DNA from: Candidatus Latescibacterota bacterium
Lineage (GTDB): Bacteria; Latescibacterota; UBA2968
Length of the DNA stretch: 64,000 nucleotides
Assembly (NCBI GenBank): GCA_965204745.1
Contig: OZ242010.1
Location: 5,408,001-5,472,000, forward strand
Direction: 5' to 3'
Under the pieces are notes generated by a model. It was not told the DNA's origin. It worked only from the letters and a program-made list of their open reading frames with translations, and made no database searches. The stretch's first letter is position 1, and every line of letters starts with the position of its first letter. Positions 25,441 through 46,930 of the stretch are shown one piece after another. The position numbers and the translations under genes were made by a program.

Positions 25441-26223
25441 ATGACATTGAACGAGCGACAGAAGCGATTTTTTTACGAACAGGGTTATCTCAAGGTCGCG
25501 GGCGCGGTGCCGCGCGTGATGGTGGATGCGGCGCGGCAGGCGATCAACGCCGAAATCGGCAAGGGGAATGCCAATCCGTTTGCCGAAATCAACACCGCGC
25601 CGGTCATTGCGGATTTGTTCAATGAAACGCCCGTGTTTTCCCTGCTCGAATCCGCATTGGGAACGGGCAATTTGCAACGTTGTCGAGCGGGCGGCATTAA
25701 GCTCAATTTTCCGCGTCCCCCCGGCAGTTCGGCAGATGTATTGACGCGAGAAATTGGATGGGGCAGAAGTGGTGGGCATCTCGATGGGATCAAGGCCGTG
25801 GGCGACCGGTTGCGCGGGTTGCGCGATGATGGGACGTATAACCGCAATTTTACGTCGTTTGCCGTGGTGTATTTGGACGATGTGCCGGTGCCCAATGGTG
25901 GCAATTTTACCGTGTGGCCCAAGTCGCATCACTTTTTTGAAGATTATTTTCGGGAACACGGGCATCGCGTTTTGGACGATCACATGCCCCATGTCACCTT
26001 GCCCGAAGGCCCGGTCTTCGTGACTGCCGAGGCAGGAGATGTGATTTTTGCCCATCACGCAATGGTGCATACGGGCGGCCCCAACACCTCGCCCAATATC
26101 CGGTACGCGGTGATTTTCAGGGCGAAACACGCGCGGATCGACGACATTGGATTCGACGCGTTCACGGATATATGGCGCGAGTGGGATGGGGTGCGCGAAG
26201 CCGCGGGCATTGGGAAAAGATAA
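25441..26223 (+). CDS. Phytanoyl-CoA dioxygenase (PhyH) family protein
   Basis: FYEQGYL, GHLDG, GNFTVWPKSH, AGDVIFAH..MVH, R. Confidence 0.85.
   Translation: MTLNERQKRFFYEQGYLKVAGAVPRVMVDAARQAINAEIGKGNANPFAEINTAPVIADLFNETPVFSLLESALGTGNLQRCRAGGIKLNFPRPPGSSADVLTREIGWGRSGGHLDGIKAVGDRLRGLRDDGTYNRNFTSFAVVYLDDVPVPNGGNFTVWPKSHHFFEDYFREHGHRVLDDHMPHVTLPEGPVFVTAEAGDVIFAHHAMVHTGGPNTSPNIRYAVIFRAKHARIDDIGFDAFTDIWREWDGVREAAGIGKR
26172..26211 (+). repeat. 40-bp direct repeat, copy 1 (phyH 3' end)
   Basis: 39/40 identical to 27017-27056. Confidence 0.9.
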
Positions 26224-26226
26224 ACG

Positions 26227-26763
26227 ATGCCGCGAAAGATAAGGGCGTTAATCCGACAACTCGAAAAGGCTCAATTCATCAATCGGGGTGGTAAAGGTAG
26301 CCATAGAAATTGCGAAACATCCAAAAGGGTGAAAGTCTTGTCGTTAATTTGTTGGTCATTGTTGATTGTTTGGTGTATGTTTTGTGTCGTATTTGTTCTT
26401 TGAAAAGTGAATCGGGATAGGCCGTTGCTGATAAAGACATGTCTGCGACAGCGACAACCAAGCGGCAGACCTAAAATCTCCTATCAGCGTAAAATCCACA
26501 GGAAGAATAGGAAATAATAGACTATTCACTTGCGCGGCTAGCTTGACCGAGCAAGTAAAAAACGGACGTGGAGGTGCTGTAAGACGGACAAGAGGTTGTA
26601 TGTGCTTGGACGCTGACCCGATGAAGCGTCAATTTCAGTTGGTCAACAATGATCAACAAGAAAGGAGCGGATGCGCGTCACAATTTCTGGCAAACTCGGT
26701 GATGATGCGAAACCCTACCAAGAAAAGGAAGTCAAAAGGAAAATTGAGGAGTCTCAACGATGA
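26227..26763 (+). pseudogene. hicA: HicA toxin split by a 342-bp insertion
   Basis: MPRKIRALIRQLEKAQFINRGGKGSHRN..KV (26227-26337) + TISGKLGDDAKPYQEKEVKRKIEESQR* (26680-26763); ATGA overlap with hicB. Confidence 0.85.
26338..26679 (+). other. Structured insert (candidate RNA or mobile element) with boxA-like motif
   Basis: GTC duplicated at the junctions; closing stem 26349-26368/26640-26659; TGTTCTTTGAAAA at 26394; several internal hairpins. Confidence 0.6.
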
Positions 26764-26996
26764 CTGAAAGTGCCCAGTACATCAAAATTGTCGAATGGTC
26801 GGACGAAGACCGATGTTTTATTGGGTATTGTCCGGGCATTATCGGTCCGTGTTGCCACGGGGACAATGAAATCGAAGTCTATCGGGCACTGTGCCAGATT
26901 GTCGATGAGTGGTTGGAAATCGCCCGCCGAGAAAACAAGGCATTGCCGCCCCCAACGATTGGCAGAAACGTCGCCAAATTGTTAATGCCAGCCTAA
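26760..26996 (+). CDS. hicB: HicB-like antitoxin
   Basis: YIKIVEWSDEDRCFIGYCPG...HGD..E......IVDEWLE......LPPP. Confidence 0.8.
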   Translation: MTESAQYIKIVEWSDEDRCFIGYCPGIIGPCCHGDNEIEVYRALCQIVDEWLEIARRENKALPPPTIGRNVAKLLMPA

Positions 26997-27016
26997 CCCA
27001 AAAGCCGTAGCGATTG

Positions 27017-27056
27017 ATGGCGCGAGTGGGATGGGGTGCGCGAAGCCGTGGGCATT
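27017..27056 (+). repeat. 40-bp direct repeat, copy 2
   Basis: Duplicate of the phyH 3' end. Confidence 0.9.
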
Positions 27057-28680: not shown

Positions 28681-28774
28681 CCCCTACACACGGCTCGCCT
28701 TTGAATTGGCTGTTGTACCCCGCTCGTGGCTAATCGCCTCGTGTGGCTCACTTCAGGTTGGGTGGTTGGGTGGG

Positions 28775-28985
28775 GACTGACTACTGACTACTGACTACTG
28801 ACTACTGACTACTGACTACTGACTACTGACTACTGACTACTGACTACTGACTACTGACTACTGACTACTGACTACTGACTACTGACTACTGACTACTGAC
28901 TACTGACTACTGACTACTGACTACTGACTACTGACTACTGACTACTGACTACTGACTACTGACTACTGACTACTGACTACTGACT
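28775..28985. repeat. Perfect tandem (GACTACT)x29
   Basis: 29 full units at 28779-28981. Confidence 0.95.
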
Positions 28986-29041
28986 CTCCCGTATCGCCTT
29001 TCACCTCTTGCCTTTCACCTCTTGCGTCTCCCGTCTTACCC

Positions 29042-40516: not shown

Positions 40517-42097
40517 ATGACGTTTGAAAACGGCGCAGTGGTCGGACAACCCGAGTCCGATTCTGCGGCTGTGAGTATCTTACAAAAAGGTGGCAATGCC
40601 GTGGATGCGGCTGTTGGCGCAGCCTTTCTCGCGTGCGTTGCAACGCCCAAGTCCTGCGGCATTGGCGGGTATGGCGGGGTGATGACCGCGTACATTGGCG
40701 GCGAAGTCGTCTGCGTCGATTTTAATACAGTCGCGCCGCGGGCGGCCCATGCGCGCCTGTTTCGCGTGACGCGCTCGGACGGGCGGTTTGGCTCTGTGGT
40801 CGGCGGGTATGCCAATCAGGTGGGGTGCAAAGCCATTTCCGTGCCCGGAGTGCTGGCAGGCCTGGGCCTCGCGCTGGAGAAGTTCGGCAAGATGAGGTTG
40901 GCAGACGTGCTCGCGCCGGCGATTCGCGCGTGTCAAAGCGGGTTTCGGGTGTCGGCAAATTACGCGGCAGGCATTGCCCAAAGCGAGCGGCGCATCCGGG
41001 AATTTCCGGAAACCGAGCGGTTGTTGCTGATCGATGGCGAAGTGCCCAAAACCGGAGATCGGGTGAAAAACCCCGAGTTGGGCGACTTGCTCGGTCAGGT
41101 CGCGGACAAGGGCGTGCGCGAGTTTTACGAGGGAGACATCGCAGAGCGCGTCGCCAAGCACGTTCGGGACAATGGCGGGGTCTTATCGCGCAATGATTTG
41201 GCAAAGTACGAGGCGCGAGTGGTCGATCCCATCCACGAGGTGTGCATGGAATACGACGTGTACAGTTCGCCGCTTTGTAGCGCGGGCGTGAGCTTGGTGC
41301 AGATGTGTGCCATTGCCGACGTGGCCGAATTGGATCTGTACGCACGCGACGCGGCCCGCTTGGCCCATGGCATGGTCGAAACCATCCGTGCGGCGTGGAT
41401 GGATCGGTACCGGCATTTTGGCGATCCGAGGTTCGTCACTGTGCCCCTGGACATTCTGATGTCGGATGTCCACTTGGGCGCGACCGCAAAAGAGGTCGCC
41501 GCCTATATTGCCGAGGGCAAACGCGGTCAATCCCTGTTGCGGCCATTTTACACGGGCGGCACCACGCATATTTGCACCGCAGACGCGCAAAACAATCTGG
41601 TCGCGCTGACCCTCACGCACGGGCCGAGCTTTGGGTCTTTTGTCACCATCCCCGGCATGGGCTTGCTGATGAACGCGGGCATGTCGCGGTTCGATCCCGG
41701 TTCCGGGTTGAAAAACTCCATTGGCCCCGGCAAAGCGCCGATTATGAACATGTGCCCGGCCATCGTGTTGCGCGATGGCGAACCCGTGCTGACCATTGGC
41801 GCGTCCGGGGGCACGCGCATCCCGTCGTCCGTGTTTCAGGTGTTGGCGCGCAGGCTAGTGCTCGACGAAGACCCCGAATGGTCGATCTCCGCGCCGCGCG
41901 TGCATTCAGAGGGCAATGAGTGGGTGCGTTTGGAAGAAGAGTTCGGCGAGGCCGCGCCGGACTATCTCCAGTCCATTGGGTACAAGGTCCATACCAAAGG
42001 CGCGGTAGCCGCCCATGTGCGGATGATCGAAGTCGCAGAAGACGGCCTGCTGGCAATGTACGACCCACGCATGAAAGCACGGGAGAAGGGGTACTGA
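40517..42097 (+). CDS. ggt: Gamma-glutamyltransferase family
   Basis: GGNAVDAA, GIGGYGG, VPGVLAG, GTTH nucleophile, GASGG.RI. Confidence 0.9.
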   Translation: MTFENGAVVGQPESDSAAVSILQKGGNAVDAAVGAAFLACVATPKSCGIGGYGGVMTAYIGGEVVCVDFNTVAPRAAHARLFRVTRSDGRFGSVVGGYANQVGCKAISVPGVLAGLGLALEKFGKMRLADVLAPAIRACQSGFRVSANYAAGIAQSERRIREFPETERLLLIDGEVPKTGDRVKNPELGDLLGQVADKGVREFYEGDIAERVAKHVRDNGGVLSRNDLAKYEARVVDPIHEVCMEYDVYSSPLCSAGVSLVQMCAIADVAELDLYARDAARLAHGMVETIRAAWMDRYRHFGDPRFVTVPLDILMSDVHLGATAKEVAAYIAEGKRGQSLLRPFYTGGTTHICTADAQNNLVALTLTHGPSFGSFVTIPGMGLLMNAGMSRFDPGSGLKNSIGPGKAPIMNMCPAIVLRDGEPVLTIGASGGTRIPSSVFQVLARRLVLDEDPEWSISAPRVHSEGNEWVRLEEEFGEAAPDYLQSIGYKVHTKGAVAAHVRMIEVAEDGLLAMYDPRMKAREKGY

Positions 42098-42503
42098 GGG
42101 GAGAGGCAAGACGGGAGAGGCAAGAGGCAAGAGGCAAGACGTAAGAGGCAAGACGTAAGAGGTAAGACGTAAGAGGCAAGAGGGGAGTTTAGCCACAAAA
42201 GGCACAAAAGGGGTACAACTGGCGATAGCCCGTTCAAAGGTGAGCAGTATATATCGCCCAAAGAGGCAAGACGTAAGAGGCAAGAGGGCAGGCCACCGTC
42301 ATTCCGGCGAAAGCCTGCCCCTATATGCTTTTGGCTGACCGCTAGGTATGCGGACAAGCACAGGGGCCTGTCCCTACGGGGCTTGGGGATGGGTGGACTG
42401 ACAACTGACTACTGACAACTTGGGCGGTGGCGGGGTTGCCTCACCTCTCCCGTCTTACGTCTCACTGAAGGGGGTTGGGCAGGGTGGGAACTGACAACTG
42501 ATT
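42098..42503. repeat. Large multi-family repeat mosaic
   Basis: Purine heptamers, family B, GTCATTCCGGCGAAAGCC fragment (42298), REP-like 42352-42377, ACTGAC heptamers before the RBS. Confidence 0.8.
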
Positions 42504-42518
42504 TTAGGAGATGAGTCC

Positions 42519-43637
42519 ATGGAAAATTATCCCTTTGGCAGTGGGCGGCCCGATCCGGGGTCGTTTCCCAACCGCGAATTGGGCGAGGCGGCCATGCGTA
42601 TTTTGCCCGAGATGGGCGATGAGTTGGCCCTGTATCCCGGCACATTGGGGTATCGGCCCCTGCGACAGGTGATGGCGGATCGCTTGTCACATCGCGAGGG
42701 CGTCGCCCCCCCGATTGACGAGATCGCATTGACTAATGGCTCGATGCAAGCCGTGACCCTGATGGCGCAGGTGTTTGTCGATCAGCCCGGCGATGGGGTG
42801 GTGATGGAGGAATTTTGTTATTCGGGTACGATTGGCGCGTATCAAAAAGAGGGCGCGGAATTGGTGGGCATTCCGGTGGATGAACACGGCATGCGGATGG
42901 ACGCGCTGTCCGATGAACTAAAAAAACGGGCCGCGAAGGGCAAGTTGCCCAAGTTCATTTACGTGCTGGCGACGTTTCAAAATCCCACGGGCGCGATTAT
43001 GCCCCTCGAGCGGCGCAAGGAATTGCTGCAAATCGCCGCGCAGTACGCGCTCCCGGTTGTGGAAGATCACTGTTATGCCGATACGGTGTACGAAGACGAT
43101 TATTACGTGCCCGCGCTCTATACCCTGCCTGCGGAGGTGCCGGTGGTGCATATCGAATCGCTGTCCAAAATTTTGGGGCCGGGCGTGCGCTTGGGGTGCT
43201 TTTTTGCCGAGCAACCCCTGTTGGGCAAAATTTTGCAAATTCGCCGGGACGGGGGAACGAGTTCGCTGGCCGCGGCGGTCGTGTACGAGTATTTCCGCGA
43301 GCACCTGTGGACGCACGTCAATCGCATCAATGCGATAGTGAAGCAAAAGCGCGATGCGATGTTTGAGATGCTCGGGCAATTTCCCGATGCGTTTGAGTGG
43401 TTTAGCCGACCCAAGGGCGGGTTGTTCATCTGGGTCAAATTGCCCGATGCCACCGATGTGGTCAAGTGCGAACAAGTCGCCGAGTCCCGCGGGATCGATT
43501 ACGCCACGGGCAAGGCGTTTCACGTCTTCCGCCGCGATGTGCCCTACCTGCGCCTCGCGTTTGGGTACGCGTCGCTGGCACAAATTCGAGAAGGCATTCC
43601 AAAGTTGGCCGAATGCGTGATTGAGACGCAAAGTTGA
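42519..43637 (+). CDS. PLP-dependent aminotransferase (class I/II, MocR/2-aminoadipate transaminase-like)
   Basis: TNGSMQA, FQNPTG, EDHCY, SLSKILGPGVRLG, LRLAF. Confidence 0.9.
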   Translation: MENYPFGSGRPDPGSFPNRELGEAAMRILPEMGDELALYPGTLGYRPLRQVMADRLSHREGVAPPIDEIALTNGSMQAVTLMAQVFVDQPGDGVVMEEFCYSGTIGAYQKEGAELVGIPVDEHGMRMDALSDELKKRAAKGKLPKFIYVLATFQNPTGAIMPLERRKELLQIAAQYALPVVEDHCYADTVYEDDYYVPALYTLPAEVPVVHIESLSKILGPGVRLGCFFAEQPLLGKILQIRRDGGTSSLAAAVVYEYFREHLWTHVNRINAIVKQKRDAMFEMLGQFPDAFEWFSRPKGGLFIWVKLPDATDVVKCEQVAESRGIDYATGKAFHVFRRDVPYLRLAFGYASLAQIREGIPKLAECVIETQS

Positions 43638-43639
43638 GG
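43542..43639 (+). repeat. 98-bp direct repeat, copy 1 (aminotransferase 3' end)
   Basis: 94/98 identical to 45078-45175. Confidence 0.92.
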
Positions 43640-43695
43640 TGGCGGTTTGGTCGCTGATCGGTTTTACGCGAACGCATCATTGAGGAGATTCAGCC

Positions 43696-43979
43696 ATGGC
43701 GGATTCACCTATCGCATTGATTTCTGACCCTGATCGCACAATGGGCCTGCCTTCAAAGACCGCTACCATCTGGCGAGCATGGACGCGCAAACGCGCACAA
43801 CACGCGCCCACGCTCGAACAGGTCCAAGAGATCACAAAAAAAGTGCAACTCAATGTCACACAGACCATCTTGGAAGAACGCAGGAAAACCTCGTGAGCGC
43901 AGATATCGACTTAAACGCATTGGCCCGGCAAGTCAACATTTTGACATTTGATCCTGAAAATCCTTTTTCATTCCTCTAA
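43696..43979 (+). pseudogene. Collapsed antitoxin + PIN toxin remnants
   Basis: GAGGAG RBS; ISDPDRTMGLP (DUF433-like start), PTLEQVQEITKK..IL.EERR (antitoxin-like end), then LVSADIDLNALARQVNILTFDP (PIN C-terminus-like). Confidence 0.45.
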
Positions 43980-43992
43980 AAATGGGTTCGCT

Positions 43993-44958
43993 ATGGCACT
44001 TGATGATCTGACAGCCACTATCGAAAAATTGCAAGACAAAATTAGGACACATCACCCGTACCTTTCTGGTAATGAGACAGCCACGCGGCAAGTGCTGATC
44101 GATCCCCTGTTGCTGGCGTTGGGATGGGATGTGTCGGATCCGGCACAAGTTGCGTTGGAGTATTCAGCAGGAGGGGGACGAGTTGATTACGCGCTGATGT
44201 CAAACGATGCCCCTGTCGCTGTAATTGAAGCGAAAAATTTGGGTACCTCATTGGAAGAGCGCGAGACCAGGCAGACTCTCAACTACGCAAATTCTGATGG
44301 CATCCCATATATGGTCGTTACCAACGGCAACGATTGGCGAATGTACGACGTTTTCACCCAGCAAACCATTGAGAAACGCATACTCATGCAGTTTTCGATA
44401 ACTCAAACACCAGCTCATGAGAGTGCGTTGCAAGCGTTGTGGATGTGGCGGTCAAATCTCGCTTCGTCTGGGAATCCCATGCCGGCAAGAGAGCCAGTAT
44501 TGCAGTCCGATGAGAAAGAACTGCCTCCTGCTGATGAGCAAGAAGGGGAAACGCCGCCGCAACCGATTATCGAATCCGACACAGAATCCGGATGGATTGC
44601 ACTGACAGATTTATCAGGAATAAATAAAACCAGTCCAAAGCCAAAGTGTATCAAACTCCCGGATGGACAGACTGAATCGTTTCGAGTTTCTGCGGTAGGC
44701 GTGCTAAGAGAAACTGCGAAATGGCTTGCTAACAGCGGGAAACTGACACCCAAAAACGCTCGGATAGAACATCCGAAATATCAAAACCGTTGTGTTTCGT
44801 CCGACACAGAGCAAACTCTCCAAAAACCAGAAAAAATCTGTGACGGTGTGTACTTCGACAAGAATTGGGGGGCTCAAGATACCATAGAGGGCACAATAGC
44901 ACTTCTCAAACACTGTGGAGAGGATCCGAGCAAAATCCATGTCAAGCTCAACCGATGA
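43993..44958 (+). CDS. HsdR N-terminal-like PD-(D/E)XK restriction nuclease domain protein
   Basis: NETATRQVLIDPLLLALGWD, EY...RVDYAL, IEAK, Y...VTNGNDW; lower GC than flanks. Confidence 0.8.
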   Translation: MALDDLTATIEKLQDKIRTHHPYLSGNETATRQVLIDPLLLALGWDVSDPAQVALEYSAGGGRVDYALMSNDAPVAVIEAKNLGTSLEERETRQTLNYANSDGIPYMVVTNGNDWRMYDVFTQQTIEKRILMQFSITQTPAHESALQALWMWRSNLASSGNPMPAREPVLQSDEKELPPADEQEGETPPQPIIESDTESGWIALTDLSGINKTSPKPKCIKLPDGQTESFRVSAVGVLRETAKWLANSGKLTPKNARIEHPKYQNRCVSSDTEQTLQKPEKICDGVYFDKNWGAQDTIEGTIALLKHCGEDPSKIHVKLNR

Positions 44959-45173
44959 ATACTCGAGAGATGACGACTGAAGAACTGCTTCGGATGGGGG
45001 ATCAAGAGATCGATTTTTCTCTCATTCCCGAATCGGAAGCAGATTTTTTTCCTAGCTGTTTTAAGACGAAATATGACCCCTACCTGCGCCTCGCGTTTGG
45101 GTACGCGTCGCTGGAACAAATCCGAGAAGGCATTCCAAAGCTGGCCGAATGCGTGATGGAGACGCAAAGTTGA
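44955..45173 (+). pseudogene. BrnA-like antitoxin N-terminus fused to the duplicated aminotransferase 3' end
   Basis: M.DQEIDFSLIPESEADFF then PYLRLAFGYASLEQIREGIPKLAECVMETQS. Confidence 0.55.
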
Positions 45174-45175
45174 GG
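45078..45175 (+). repeat. 98-bp direct repeat, copy 2
   Basis: Duplicate of 43542-43639. Confidence 0.92.
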
Positions 45176-45223
45176 GGTCGGTTTTGGCAAGTGTGATGCC
45201 TCGAGGTATCCGCAAGGGGAATC

Positions 45224-45430
45224 ATGAACGGAAGGGAATTTGTCAGATATGCCAGACGCTACGCGAGAAAGACAGGGGTGGAGTTCCGCTTTGATCCGCG
45301 CCGCGGCAAGGGTAGCCATGGGACTCTTTATGTGGGCAACCGCTACACAGTGGTCAAGCATGGCGAGATTTCCAAGGGCCTGTTGACAACCATGCTCGAG
45401 CAACTCGGAATTGACAGGAAGGAGTTCTGA
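45224..45430 (+). CDS. hicA: HicA family toxin
   Basis: RRGKGSHGTLY, EISKGLL..ML.QLGI. Confidence 0.85.
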   Translation: MNGREFVRYARRYARKTGVEFRFDPRRGKGSHGTLYVGNRYTVVKHGEISKGLLTTMLEQLGIDRKEF

Positions 45431-45433
45431 ATC

Positions 45434-45868
45434 GTGCAATACGCTTACCCGTGCAATTTGATGCCCGACCCCGAAGAAAGGGAGGGTTTTATCGTGACCT
45501 TTCCCGACGTGCCCGAAGCGATAACAGGGGCGCGAACCAGGGCAGAGTCTCTTTTTTATGCCGAAGACGCCCTCGTCGCCATCCTCGCTGTGTACGTCCA
45601 AGAGAAACGGGAAATCCCAACGCCAAGCCCTGTGGCTACCGGTCAGGAACTCGTCGCTGTCCCGCCTGTGGCCGCCGCTAAGTTGGCCCTCTATACAGCC
45701 ATGTGTAAGCAGGGGATCACCAGGGACGCGCTCGCTGACCGCCTGGGTTTGAGCGAGTCGGTCATCCGCAAATTGATCGACCCGGATTGCTACTCTCACA
45801 TCAGCCAGATCATGAAAGCACTCAAAACCGTCGGGCGCAATCTGGTCGTAGAAGACAGGGCGGCATAA
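45434..45868 (+). CDS. hicB: HicB family antitoxin with HTH
   Basis: FIVTFPDVPEAITGA, IPTPS, AKLALY.AM..QGIT...LA.RLG. Confidence 0.88.
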   Translation: MQYAYPCNLMPDPEEREGFIVTFPDVPEAITGARTRAESLFYAEDALVAILAVYVQEKREIPTPSPVATGQELVAVPPVAAAKLALYTAMCKQGITRDALADRLGLSESVIRKLIDPDCYSHISQIMKALKTVGRNLVVEDRAA

Positions 45869-45888
45869 AATAAAAATGGGAGTGCGAT

Positions 45889-46677
45889 GTGAATGCACCG
45901 ACTTTAGAACGCCCGCCCATTCCGGGCGTCAAATACATTGTTGCTATCGCCAGCGGCAAGGGTGGGGTGGGCAAATCCACGACAGCGGCTAATTTGGCTG
46001 TGGCTCTGGCGATGATGGGGCACGCGGTGGGGCTGATGGATGCGGATATTTACGGCCCGAATGTGCCGATTATGATGGGCACCAAAGCGCAGCCACAGAT
46101 GACGCCCGAGCGCGAAATTGAACCCATTGAGCGGCATGGCGTCAAACTGGTGTCGTTGGGATTGATCGCGGGCGATGGCGTGCCGATTATCTGGCGCGGC
46201 CCCATGCTGGCGAAAATGGTGACGCAATTTGTGCGCGGCGTGGCATGGGCACCGCTCGATTGTCTGGTGATCGACTTGCCACCGGGCACTGGGGATGTGC
46301 AGTTGACGTTGACCCAAACGACCCCGTTGGATGGGGCCTTGATCGTGACCACGCCCCCGTTGGTGGCGCAAGAAGACGTGCGGCGCGGGGTCGAAATGTT
46401 TCGCACGGTTGACGTGCCCGTGCTCGGGGTGATCGAAAATATGAGCACTTACATCTGTAGCAGTTGCGGCACAGAGACTCCGATTTTTGGACGGGGCGGG
46501 GGACAGCGCACCGCAGATGCGTATCGCGTGCCGTTCTTGGGCGCGATACCGTTGCATCGTCAAGTGCAATTAGGCAGCGATGCGGGCGAGCCAATCGCGG
46601 CGGCTGATCCCGACGCGCCACTGGCAAAAATGTACCGCGCCATCGCCGAGCGCGTCTGGCGATCTTTGGCGCGGTGA
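45889..46677 (+). CDS. mrp: Mrp/NBP35 Fe-S cluster carrier ATPase (ApbC-like)
   Basis: SGKGGVGKST, DADIYGP, WRGPM, DLPPGTGD, ENMS..C..C. Confidence 0.92.
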   Translation: MNAPTLERPPIPGVKYIVAIASGKGGVGKSTTAANLAVALAMMGHAVGLMDADIYGPNVPIMMGTKAQPQMTPEREIEPIERHGVKLVSLGLIAGDGVPIIWRGPMLAKMVTQFVRGVAWAPLDCLVIDLPPGTGDVQLTLTQTTPLDGALIVTTPPLVAQEDVRRGVEMFRTVDVPVLGVIENMSTYICSSCGTETPIFGRGGGQRTADAYRVPFLGAIPLHRQVQLGSDAGEPIAAADPDAPLAKMYRAIAERVWRSLAR

Positions 46678-46739: not shown

Positions 46740-46930
46740 ATTTTTTGGCAACTATACATTCGTTTAGTATATTGTGTTGGTAGGCAAAAAAAGTGTATCT
46801 TTTTAGGCGGTTGTGGGTTTATTTAGAGTACAATTTGGGATTGGGGGTAGGGAGCCACTGGATTACTTACGTTGTGCTTGCGCGTGCGCCTTTGAACGGG
46901 TTGTCGCCAGTTGTACCCCGCTCGTGGCTA

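What the first reader, a model, noticed from the sequence alone, without database searches (positions are those of the whole stretch)
43542..45175. Integrase-less defence mini-island bounded by a 98-bp duplication of the host gene's 3' end
Seen: the last ~96 nt of the aminotransferase, including its stop codon (43542-43639), recur 1536 bp later (45078-45175, 4 mismatches). Between them lie TA remnants, an HsdR-N-like nuclease and a BrnA-like fragment fused in frame to the duplicate. An intact hicAB follows. Established: integrase-driven islands restore the 3' end of a target gene and leave the displaced piece at the far end. Here there is no recombinase and the unit is only 1.5 kb. Inference: with the second case at 26172-27056, this suggests a general mechanism that drops small TA/restriction cassettes into operons at arbitrary gene 3' ends, using a trans-acting recombinase or short-homology recombination. 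The cassettes could excise again via the direct repeats.
Basis: partly seen in the sequence, partly recalled or inferred. Interest (0 to 1): 0.82.

Follow-up and report, generated by a model that had tools for sequence, protein, structure and literature searches.

The report
Recombination scar at a defence-gene hotspot
A small gene cassette is flanked by two copies of the end of a housekeeping gene, and it looks like the scar left when two alternative versions of a fast-changing toxin-antitoxin/defence locus were joined, a known but poorly understood way for bacteria to gain defence genes without a dedicated insertion enzyme.

Summary
The last ~96 nt plus stop of a class I/II aminotransferase (AT) recur 1536 bp downstream, with 4 mismatches in 98 nt and 93% identity over 112 nt. 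The repeat brackets a low-GC cassette: orf66, an HSDR_N-domain protein and a truncated BrnA-like stub. It lies in front of hicAB and mrp.

In 20 related Latescibacterota genomes the AT–mrp interval is hypervariable. Five are empty, and the others hold 0.8–6 kb of shuffled modules. The two closest relatives carry the exact single-copy empty site (AT→hicA). The AT→orf66 junction also exists in another relative. So only one joint, at 45077/45078, is new.

Best reading (about 0.6): two alternative hotspot alleles were stacked by one homologous exchange in the AT 3' end plus one illegitimate join. That is homology-facilitated illegitimate recombination or Campbell-type integration, not an integrase island.

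The pattern recurs genome-wide. Nineteen unique repeats are of the 3'-end type, against 8.4±2.7 expected. Their cargo includes type I and II RM, CBASS and ThsB. The repeats share no motif, and the genome has only two tyrosine recombinases, both distant.

This matches the "insertion with long target duplication" described for RM systems, so it is a new member of a known kind. Excision was not testable.

The parts
42519..43637 (+). Class I/II aminotransferase (AT), a conserved core gene that forms the left border of the hotspot
   Evidence: ORF. PF00155 E 5e-30. Present in 31 of 31 genomes searched.
43537..43648 (+). Direct-repeat copy 1: last 96 nt of AT, its stop codon and about 10 nt downstream (core 43542-43639)
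   Evidence: The sequence continues into orf66 collinearly with relative G003 (window 43401-43968 matches L022 883-1439).
43696..43896 (+). orf66, a small ORF of no known family. Its 3' half (43792-43887) is the best-conserved piece of the variable region across relatives.
   Evidence: No Pfam or PADLOC hit. 84-88% nt identity in the nine relatives where 43792-43887 aligns as its own HSP (L016, L018, L022, L024, L026) or within a longer one (L019, L020, L025, L030).
43993..44958 (+). orf321: N-terminal HSDR_N (PD-(D/E)XK-type) domain plus a C-terminal domain of unknown family
   Evidence: PF04313 E 6e-15 and PF13588 E 4.5e-10. No PADLOC hit. Homologues at 40-58% aa identity sit at the same locus in G002, G006, G012, G003 and G016.
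44955..45077 (+). Truncated N-terminal stub of a BrnA-like gene (brnA'). In this genome it is fused in frame to copy 2 (chimeric ORF 44865/44955-45173).
   Evidence: Homologous to G001 L017 1140-1216 (84% nt) and G016 L014. The G001 C-terminal frame hits PF14384 at E 5e-4. A 1-nt deletion at 45044 is seen in runs X1 and X2.
45077..45078 (.). The only novel (illegitimate) joint: brnA' stub | AT nucleotide 1024
   Evidence: Sequence. Everything to the right is collinear with G018 and G016, and the AT→orf66 junction to the left exists in G003.
45073..45184 (+). Direct-repeat copy 2: displaced AT 3' end, stop codon and leader, contiguous with hicA as in the closest relatives
   Evidence: Window 45078-45998 matches G018 L013 1024-1945 at 93.1%, and 45078-45844 matches G016 L014 1024-1802 at 89%.
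45224..45430 (+). hicA toxin gene
   Evidence: PF07927 E 3e-5, below cut-off. 72-96% aa identity at the same locus in relatives.
45434..45868 (+). hicB antitoxin gene (HicB-like N-terminus plus HTH)
   Evidence: PF15919 E 3.5e-5 and PF01381 E 2e-3. Conserved in relatives.
45889..46677 (+). mrp/apbC-type P-loop NTPase, a conserved core gene that forms the right border of the hotspot
   Evidence: PF10609 E 9e-94. Directly follows AT in 5 of 20 relatives.
26167..26211 (+). Second case, repeat copy 1: 3' end of the PhyH-family gene 25441-26223
   Evidence: PF05721.
26227..26996 (+). Second case, cargo: a weakly HicA-like gene interrupted by a 331-nt dispersed repeat (26340-26670), plus a weakly HicB/UPF0150-like ORF 26760-26996
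   Evidence: PF07927 E 0.034 and PF21748 E 0.01. The repeat has 2 further copies at 98% and about 10 diverged copies in the genome.
27012..27056 (+). Second case, repeat copy 2, just upstream of the dienelactone-hydrolase gene (starts 27087)
   Evidence: G001, G006 and G013 carry a single copy with PhyH and DLH adjacent.

Best explanation
The AT-mrp interval is a hypervariable toxin-antitoxin/nuclease hotspot between two core genes of a Candidatus Latescibacterota genus. The repeat is a recombination scar, not the att site of a mobile island.

Two alternative alleles of the hotspot were stacked in tandem. One is 'AT-orf66-orf321-brnA...'. The other is 'AT-hicA-hicB-mrp', as still seen in the two closest relatives. 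One exchange was homologous, within the shared AT 3' end; homology between alleles stops about 10 nt after the stop codon, and that sets the outer edge of the repeat. The other end was joined illegitimately, cutting brnA and AT at nucleotide 1024, which sets the inner edge.

Two routes give this product. One is homology-facilitated illegitimate recombination of a linear fragment. The other is Campbell-type integration of a fragment that had circularised.

The result is an intact AT gene, a 1.4-kb low-GC cassette, a dead chimeric ORF (brnA'::AT C-terminus) and the untouched hicAB-mrp. The same process, anchored in conserved gene ends, explains the other 3'-end duplications around RM, CBASS, ThsB and similar cassettes in this genome.

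Shown: the repeat, the hotspot, the empty sites, the single novel joint, the lack of a recombinase, and the genome-wide excess. Inferred: the recombination pathway, which allele was donor, and DNA uptake.
For: (1) Of 20 relatives, 5 have AT directly followed by mrp: G013, G010, G005 and the two other-family genomes G023 and G021. The rest hold different module sets of 0.8-6 kb. States differ even between neighbouring tips of the AT tree.

(2) G018 and G016 carry the exact single-copy site. Window 45078-45998 is collinear with their AT 3' end-hicAB-mrp at 93% and 89%.

(3) The AT→orf66 junction is collinear in G003 (43401-43968, 76%), and the AT→leader junction in G008 up to 43665. That leaves only 45077/45078 as a new joint.

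(4) The cassette modules occur in relatives only at or next to this locus, at 74% identity or less. They are resident alleles, not an incoming mobile element.

(5) A second locus (L044) reads x-B-y'x'-C-y, with a permuted middle junction y'|x' at the microhomology CAA(A/T)CGCC. This is what stacking of two alleles predicts.

(6) At L045 two paralogous AAA_5 genes (615 and 737 aa) that share 154 nt of 3' end are stacked. G001 has only one of them.

(7) The 12 repeats share no motif: 13 shared 8-mers against 8.8±3.7 in shuffles. There are only two tyrosine recombinases, both far away, and no serine recombinase in any cassette.

(8) 3'-end-type repeats number 19 against 8.4±2.7 (maximum 17 in 200 relocations). 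5'-end-type repeats number 10 against 8.1±2.6.

(9) Cassette GC is 48.5%, against 58% for AT and 61% for mrp.

(10) On the rooted AT tree G018 and G016 are not sisters, so a single gain in the G000 line is more parsimonious than two precise losses.

(11) ComEC and DprA homologues are present. This is weak evidence, since the same families ring in 10 of 14 control genomes.
Against: No donor allele with a full brnA after orf321 was found in the 20 genus genomes, so microhomology at 45077/45078 cannot be assessed. About 26 nt (45052-45077) are of unclear origin.

The two copies are closer to each other (4 of 98 differences) than either is to G018 or G016 (8-10 of 98). This fits a within-species donor, but equally an in-situ duplication or later gene conversion. 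Copy 2 holds the genus-consensus base at 3 of the 4 variable sites and copy 1 at 1 of 4. That is only a weak hint that copy 1 is the imported one.

Polarity rests on a single-gene tree without support values. G018 and G016 could be repeat-mediated deletions of a G000-like state.

The genome-wide scan used ORFs rather than curated genes. Random relocation is a crude null because repeats cluster in variable regions. I chose the 8 repeat pairs whose cargo I annotated by eye from 28, so the defence-cargo share is not an unbiased rate.
Confidence: 0.6

Rival explanations
1. In-situ 'insertion with long target duplication' in the strict sense. A free cassette entered a naive AT-hicA site through widely staggered breaks or double-strand-break repair, copying about 100 nt of target on both sides. 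Both junctions would then be new.
For: The final structure is identical to that class, whose mechanism is unresolved (Furuta 2010, passages read). The two copies differ by only 4 of 98 nt, and both are 8-10 of 98 from the nearest relatives, as expected for a duplication made in this lineage.
Against: The left junction (AT stop→leader→orf66) is not new. It is collinear in G003, and partly in G008. The cassette modules are residents of this locus in 11 of 20 genus genomes and are never found at 75% identity or more elsewhere. The outer repeat edge coincides with the end of inter-allele homology.
Confidence: 0.17
2. An att-flanked, non-autonomous island (CIME-like) moved by a site-specific recombinase encoded elsewhere in the genome or on a helper element.
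For: Direct repeats at a gene's 3' end with restoration of the gene are the classic signature of integrase islands (established knowledge). At L044 two cassettes sit in tandem, separated by repeat copies.
Against: Only two PF00589 proteins exist in the genome, at 0.68 and 2.80 Mb. Their being XerC/D-type is my guess and was not tested. The six PF00239 hits are small, multi-copy and not in the cassettes; three carry stop codons. Repeat lengths range from 30 to 190 nt and share no core. The middle junction at L044 is a permuted y'|x' joint, not a shared core. The cassette contents are locus-specific.
Confidence: 0.06
3. The G000 arrangement is old, and the 'empty' AT-hicA alleles of G018 and G016 arose from it by repeat-mediated deletion. 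The finding then documents loss rather than a gain in this lineage. The origin of the repeat would still need one of the mechanisms above.
For: Recombination between 100-nt direct repeats gives exactly the G018/G016 sequence. The same arrangement is present at 95-99% identity in contigs of runs from other studies, so it is not a very recent event. G016 carries orf321C-brnA' downstream of hicB, a circular permutation that a circle excised through the repeats could produce.
Against: It needs two independent precise deletions on the AT tree. No third AT 3' copy is present in G016.
Confidence: 0.15
4. Assembly artefact (false duplication).
For: None found.
Against: The copies differ at 4 sites and have different flanks. 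In two independent runs the shared node has about double depth, and cassette contigs enter copy 2.
Confidence: 0.02

Closest known systems
Insertion with long target duplication of restriction-modification gene complexes (Furuta, Abe & Kobayashi 2010, NAR 38:2428, PMC2853133, passages read; first described by Nobusato et al. 2000, known to me only through that paper's citation and recall)
   Same: The insert is under 20 kb and has no integrase or transposase. It is flanked by unique direct repeats longer than 30 bp (46-423 bp in their tables). The repeat sequence is present once in a related genome without the insert. The repeat often overlaps a gene's 3' end. Insert GC deviates from the genome. 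Several RM cassettes of this genome (L043 type I; L044 Dcm plus REase) fit all of their criteria.
   Different: The cassette at 43649-45072 has no R-M pair, only an HSDR_N-domain protein. Cargo in this genome extends to TA genes, CBASS, ThsB-TIR and Lamassu-like genes. Here one of the two junctions can be shown to pre-exist in relatives, which points to homologous plus illegitimate recombination between alleles rather than the RM-inflicted double-strand breakage those authors suggested.
Homology-facilitated illegitimate recombination and the 'displacement arrays' attributed to it: orphan immunity genes behind T6SS effector-immunity modules and orphan Rhs/CDI 3' ends (Kirchberger et al. 2017, Sci Rep 7:45133, PMC5361080, passages read; de Vries & Wackernagel 2002 and Prudhomme et al. 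2002 seen only in its reference list)
   Same: A conserved upstream gene serves as the homologous anchor. The new module is added next to it. The older module is pushed downstream together with a remnant of the conserved gene's 3' part. No recombinase is involved, and successive events build arrays.
   Different: The anchor here is an unrelated housekeeping gene rather than the toxin's own constant region. No experimental evidence for transformation exists in this uncultured lineage.
Integrase-borne genomic islands and their recombinase-less derivatives (CIMEs) at tRNA genes or gene 3' ends
   Same: A direct repeat of the target gene's 3' end flanks the insert, the gene stays intact and a displaced fragment lies at the far end.
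   Different: There is no integrase in or near the unit. The repeats of different loci share no core. Cassette contents are locus-specific rather than mobile. One junction is ancestral.
Integrase-free defence hotspots between core genes in E. coli and Pseudomonas pan-genomes (recalled; not searched or read here)
   Same: A fixed pair of core genes brackets highly variable defence/TA cargo that turns over faster than species diverge.
   Different: Those hotspots are thought to exchange cargo by double homologous recombination in the flanks, which leaves no duplication. Here an illegitimate joint left a visible scar.

Membership tests
Insertion with long target duplication (criteria of Furuta 2010) | Direct repeats longer than 30 bp flank the insert and are unique in the genome | tested here: met
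   112 nt at 93%, 98-nt core with 4 mismatches, two copies only.
Insertion with long target duplication (criteria of Furuta 2010) | The repeat sequence occurs once, with no insert, in a related genome | tested here: met
   G018 and G016 have a single AT 3' end contiguous with hicA.
Insertion with long target duplication (criteria of Furuta 2010) | Insert under 20 kb with no other mobile-element genes | tested here: met
   The insert is 1.4 kb. Its ORFs are orf66, orf321 (HSDR_N) and brnA'. PF00589 and PF00239 hits lie elsewhere. No inverted repeats sit at the cassette ends.
Insertion with long target duplication (criteria of Furuta 2010) | The insert contains both R and M gene homologues | tested here: not met
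   There is no methyltransferase, only an HSDR_N domain, and no PADLOC hit. The criterion is met at other loci of the genome: L043 HsdS/M/R, and L044 Dcm plus REase_II.
Product of homology-facilitated illegitimate recombination / Campbell-type allele stacking | One side of the insert is joined through homology, i.e. that junction already exists in related alleles | tested here: met
   AT→orf66 is collinear in G003. Copy 2→hicA is collinear in G018 and G016.
Product of homology-facilitated illegitimate recombination / Campbell-type allele stacking | The other side is an illegitimate joint at a short microhomology | tested here: inconclusive
   The joint at 45077/45078 truncates brnA and AT, but the donor sequence beyond the joint is unknown. 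At the analogous L044 joint the microhomology CAA(A/T)CGCC is visible.
Product of homology-facilitated illegitimate recombination / Campbell-type allele stacking | DNA uptake and RecA-dependent integration demonstrated | not testable with these tools
   Only ComEC and DprA homologues were found. These families also ring in 10 of 14 control genomes.
Integrase-type genomic island / CIME | A cognate tyrosine or serine recombinase in the element or available in trans | tested here: not met
   The genome has two PF00589 hits, at 676 kb and 2.80 Mb, and six small PF00239 hits, three with stop codons, none in a cassette.
Integrase-type genomic island / CIME | A common att core among elements served by the same recombinase | tested here: not met
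   The 12 repeats share 13 8-mers, against 8.8±3.7 in shuffles.
HicAB type II toxin-antitoxin pair (45224-45868) | A HicA toxin domain followed by a HicB antitoxin with a DNA-binding domain, as adjacent genes | tested here: inconclusive
   PF07927 E 3e-5 (24.4 bits, cut-off 27), PF15919 E 3.5e-5 (24.4 bits, cut-off 27) and HTH_3 E 2e-3. The genes are 3 nt apart and the pair is conserved in relatives. Both domain hits are below the curated cut-offs.

The most novel reading that the evidence does not exclude
These repeats may mark a recombinase-free 'accretion cycle' for defence and TA cassettes that operates throughout this sponge-associated lineage. Cassettes would loop out as circles through the gene-end repeats, pass between strains, and re-enter by short homology to any conserved gene end. 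Hotspots would then grow like integron arrays without an integrase. This would be the virus-like life cycle that Kobayashi's group proposed for RM systems but never demonstrated. The circularly permuted module order in G016 relative to G000 would be a footprint of such a circle.
Probability: 0.12. Interest if true: 0.75.

Novelty: new member of a known kind. Interest (0 to 1): 0.45.

Why it matters
Defence islands and TA loci turn over very fast, yet many have no integrase or transposase, and how cargo gets in is largely inferred. Here one genome offers about ten scars of the same type, in a phylum with no genetics. At three loci (AT-mrp, L044 and L045) the scar can be read as two alleles stacked, and at AT-mrp and L044 as one ancestral junction plus one illegitimate joint.

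This gives a concrete, testable route for "insertion with long target duplication", whose mechanism has stayed open since 2000. The route is homologous anchoring in a conserved gene end plus an illegitimate join. It also extends the phenomenon from RM systems to CBASS, ThsB, Lamassu-like and TA cargo.

For annotation, it flags short ORFs that end like a neighbouring housekeeping gene as chimeric remnants rather than genes.

Tried and rejected
I replaced them with k-mer scripts.
- Rfam on 43400-46000 gave no match at E ≤ 0.1, so the conserved 96-nt piece of orf66 is not a known RNA.
- PADLOC gave nothing for orf321 or orf66.
- I looked for a near-identical donor of the cassette in 20 genus genomes and found none above 74%.
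- I compared single-base differences to decide which copy is native. The result is not decisive: 8 against 10 differences to G018, and 9 against 10 to G016.
- I looked for a mosaic donor tract in AT. G000 against G018 has 11 mismatches in the 1000-1100 bin, against 1-7 in the other full bins. This is suggestive only.
- Read-level evidence for excision or circles could not be obtained. Only Logan contigs were available, and they break inside the first 30 nt of the repeat. No contig skipping the 1536-bp unit was listed, which says nothing either way.
- In run X11 the AT contig has depth 61.9 against 18.2 for the cassette. This may mean strain heterogeneity at the hotspot, but contig depths are not reliable for that.
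- Loci L049-L054 were fetched but not compared with relatives, and L048 was annotated but not compared.
- By their ORF content, several rows of the scan look like tandem paralogues, segmental duplications or repeat proteins, not cassettes: 790661, 1198854, 1783466, 2749522, 3241124, 4691206 and 4692688.
Full report
**Observation.** The repeat is as described. The repeat finder gives 43537-43648 and 45073-45184 (112 nt, 93%), 1536 bp apart. The 98-nt core has four mismatches, at repeat positions 38, 45, 64 and 81. Copy 1 is the end of ORF 42519-43637, a class I/II aminotransferase (AT; PF00155, E 5e-30). Copy 2 forms the last 32 codons of a chimeric ORF (44865-45173). The repeat occurs only twice in the 5.48-Mb single-contig genome.

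**Anatomy.** Between the copies lie three elements:
- orf66 (43696-43896), with no family hit.
- A 321-aa protein (43993-44958) with an N-terminal HSDR_N nuclease-type domain (PF04313 E 6e-15) and an unassigned C-terminal half.
- A 41-codon stub (44955-45077), fused in frame to copy 2.

The stub is homologous to the start of a longer gene that lies between AT and hicA in relative G001. That gene's C-terminal frame weakly matches BrnA_antitoxin (E 5e-4, below cut-off). Downstream are hicA (45224-45430), hicB (45434-45868) and an Mrp/NUBPL-type NTPase (45889-46677). The cassette has 48.5% GC, against 58% for AT, 56% for hicAB and 61% for mrp. No inverted repeats bound it, and Rfam finds nothing.

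**The locus in relatives.** AT has an orthologue in all 31 genomes searched. Record titles of related contigs name Candidatus Latescibacterota MAGs. I fetched the AT-downstream region from 18 same-genus and 2 other-family genomes and mapped the window's proteins and DNA onto them.
- AT is followed directly by mrp in G013, G010, G005 and both outgroups, so adjacency is the likely ancestral state.
- The other 15 carry between 0.8 and about 6 kb of differing material. It is built from a recurring set of modules (orf66, orf321, brnA, hicA, hicB) plus unrelated inserts.
- States differ between neighbouring tips of the AT tree, for example G013 (empty) against G012 (5.5 kb).
- None of the 20 has a second AT 3' end.
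- Cassette DNA (43640-45077) finds matches in 11 of 20 genus genomes. Nearly all are at this same locus, and none exceeds 74% over a long stretch.

The cassette parts are therefore old residents of one hotspot, not a travelling element.

**The junctions.** In G018 and G016, the two closest relatives (AT 95% aa), window 45078-45998 and 45078-45844 are collinear with 'AT 3' end-leader-hicA-hicB(-mrp)' at 93% and 89%. This is the exact one-copy site. In G003, window 43401-43968 is collinear across the AT stop into orf66 (76%). In G008 collinearity runs to 43665. So both outer junctions exist elsewhere, and only the brnA'|AT-nt-1024 joint at 45077/45078 is novel. The outer edge of the repeat, about 10 nt past the stop, coincides with the point where the relatives' sequences stop aligning.

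**Mechanism.** One novel joint plus one duplicated homologous segment is what results when two alternative alleles are joined by a homologous exchange in the shared gene end and an illegitimate join at the other end. Two routes give this: homology-facilitated illegitimate recombination of a linear fragment, or single-crossover integration of a circularised fragment. Which allele was resident cannot be told.

The four differences do not settle the origin. Copy 2 carries the genus-consensus base at 3 of 4 sites and copy 1 at 1 of 4. Both copies are 8-10 of 98 nt from G018 or G016 and only 4 of 98 from each other. This fits a within-species partner, an in-situ duplication or gene conversion equally well. 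On the rooted AT tree G018 and G016 are successive branches, so one gain in the G000 line is more parsimonious than two precise losses. This is a single-gene tree without support values.

**Generality.** A k-mer scan sought direct repeats of 30-250 nt, at least 85% identical, 250-10,000 bp apart, unique in the genome, and overlapping the stop of an ORF of at least 150 aa. It gave 29 rows, or 28 distinct repeat pairs.

With a stricter uniqueness filter, 177 unique pairs remain. Of these, 19 are of the 3'-end type, against 8.4±2.7 (maximum 17) in 200 random relocations. Ten are of the mirror-image 5'-end type, against 8.1±2.6. This null is crude.

From the ORF listing I picked 8 pairs at 6 loci by eye and annotated them:
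- L043: type I RM, HsdS/M/R.
- L044 B: Dcm plus a PADLOC REase_II.
- L044 C: a protein with a LmuA-like C-terminus plus an 865-aa unknown.
- L045: two AAA_5 proteins.
- L046: a ThsB-type TIR protein.
- L047: a CBASS cyclase (E 2e-145) with a patatin effector, plus HTH-M78 and HTH genes.
- L048: an MNT-type nucleotidyltransferase.

Other rows look like tandem paralogues or segmental duplications.

I checked seven loci against five relatives. Each has at least one relative lacking the cargo, with the flanks adjacent or nearly so:
- The AT locus.
- PhyH: G001, G006 and G013.
- L043: G001, G006 and G013.
- L044: G001 and G006 lack everything; G018 and G016 lack both cassettes at this site.
- L047: G018.
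- L046: G001.
- L045: G001 has only the 737-aa unit.

L044 is instructive. It reads x-B-y'x'-C-y, where x and y are the ends of two convergent genes. The middle copy is a permuted y'|x' joint at the microhomology CAA(A/T)CGCC. This is again two alleles stacked.

**Against a site-specific recombinase.** The genome has two PF00589 matches, at 0.68 and 2.80 Mb. It has six small multi-copy PF00239 matches, three with stop codons and none in a cassette. Twelve repeats of 30-190 nt share no motif: 13 shared 8-mers against 8.8±3.7 in shuffles.

**Reads.** Only Logan contigs were available. They break within the first 30 nt of the repeat, as expected for k-mer graphs. In two runs from different studies the shared 63-nt node has about double depth, and cassette contigs reach 30 nt into copy 2. 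So the duplication is real and is shared by populations 95-99% identical. In those two runs a 1-nt deletion at 45044 would destroy the in-frame fusion, which supports the view that the chimeric ORF is a remnant. No contig skipping the unit was listed. Contigs cannot address excision.

**Comparison with what is known.** Furuta et al. 2010 (PMC2853133; passages read) define "insertion with long target duplication" as:
- an RM insert under 20 kb,
- without mobility genes,
- flanked by unique direct repeats longer than 30 bp (46-423 bp),
- with the repeat present once in a genome lacking the insert.

They report it for RM types I-IV and several phyla, and some of their repeats overlap a gene's 3' end. 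They leave the mechanism open and suggest double-strand breakage. The present case meets every criterion except the R+M cargo; other loci of this genome meet all of them.

Kirchberger et al. 2017 (PMC5361080; passages read) invoke homology-facilitated illegitimate recombination for T6SS effector-immunity arrays and cite the same idea for orphan Rhs 3' ends. That is the nearest mechanistic parallel.

I therefore file this as a new member of a known kind. It has wider cargo and comes from an uncultured phylum, and junction evidence favours the homologous-plus-illegitimate route.

**Limits.**
- The donor allele was not found.
- Polarity rests on one gene.
- The scan used ORFs.
- Cargo loci were chosen by eye.
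- Integrase-free core-genome defence hotspots in other bacteria are cited from memory only.

Noticed in passing
window 42088-42299 and 28734-28992: Arrays of a 14-nt tandem unit (AGAGGCAAGACGTA-like) lie in intergenic DNA upstream of AT (8 copies in register) and at 28.7-29.0 kb (12 or more copies, many identical).
   Followed up: no
window 26340-26670: A 331-nt dispersed repeat interrupts the weakly HicA-like gene of the second case. The genome holds two further full-length copies at 98% (G000 3848546 and 3055918) and about 10 diverged partial copies. It looks MITE-like.
   Followed up: partly
L044 5094-5385 (G000 1682593-1682884): A roughly 285-nt element inside cassette C has dozens of copies at 80-93% in relatives G018 and G016. 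A roughly 500-nt element at L047 1-504 has more than 30 copies in G016. The genus is rich in dispersed repeats.
   Followed up: no
window 45218-45387: Contigs of three runs (X11 minor, X1, X13) join 45218 to 45387, or 45222 to 45391. This removes 168 nt, most of the hicA toxin gene, and leaves hicB. It suggests toxin loss in part of the population.
   Followed up: no
L014 (G016) 1377-2497, against window 44417-45844: In G016 hicB is fused at codon ~137 to the C-terminal half of orf321, followed by brnA' and an IS. The order hicAB→orf321C-brnA' is a circular permutation of the G000 order orf321C-brnA'→AT3'-hicAB.
   Followed up: partly
window 43792-43887: The 3' half of orf66 aligns at 84-88% nt identity where it forms its own HSP in five relatives (L016, L018, L022, L024, L026), and it lies within longer 69-80% HSPs in four more. 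In some relatives it is a fragment directly upstream of hicB or mrp. It is better conserved than its surroundings, and there is no Rfam or Pfam hit.
   Followed up: partly
window 42200-42240 and 46889-46929: A 41-nt inverted repeat (85% complementary) brackets the whole AT-mrp block, 4.6 kb apart. It may be copies of a dispersed intergenic repeat.
   Followed up: no
window 42800-45063 in run X11: In the run that holds 94% of the stretch, the AT contig has depth 61.9 and the cassette contig 18.2. This may reflect co-existing strains with other alleles at the hotspot. Contig depths are unreliable.
   Followed up: no
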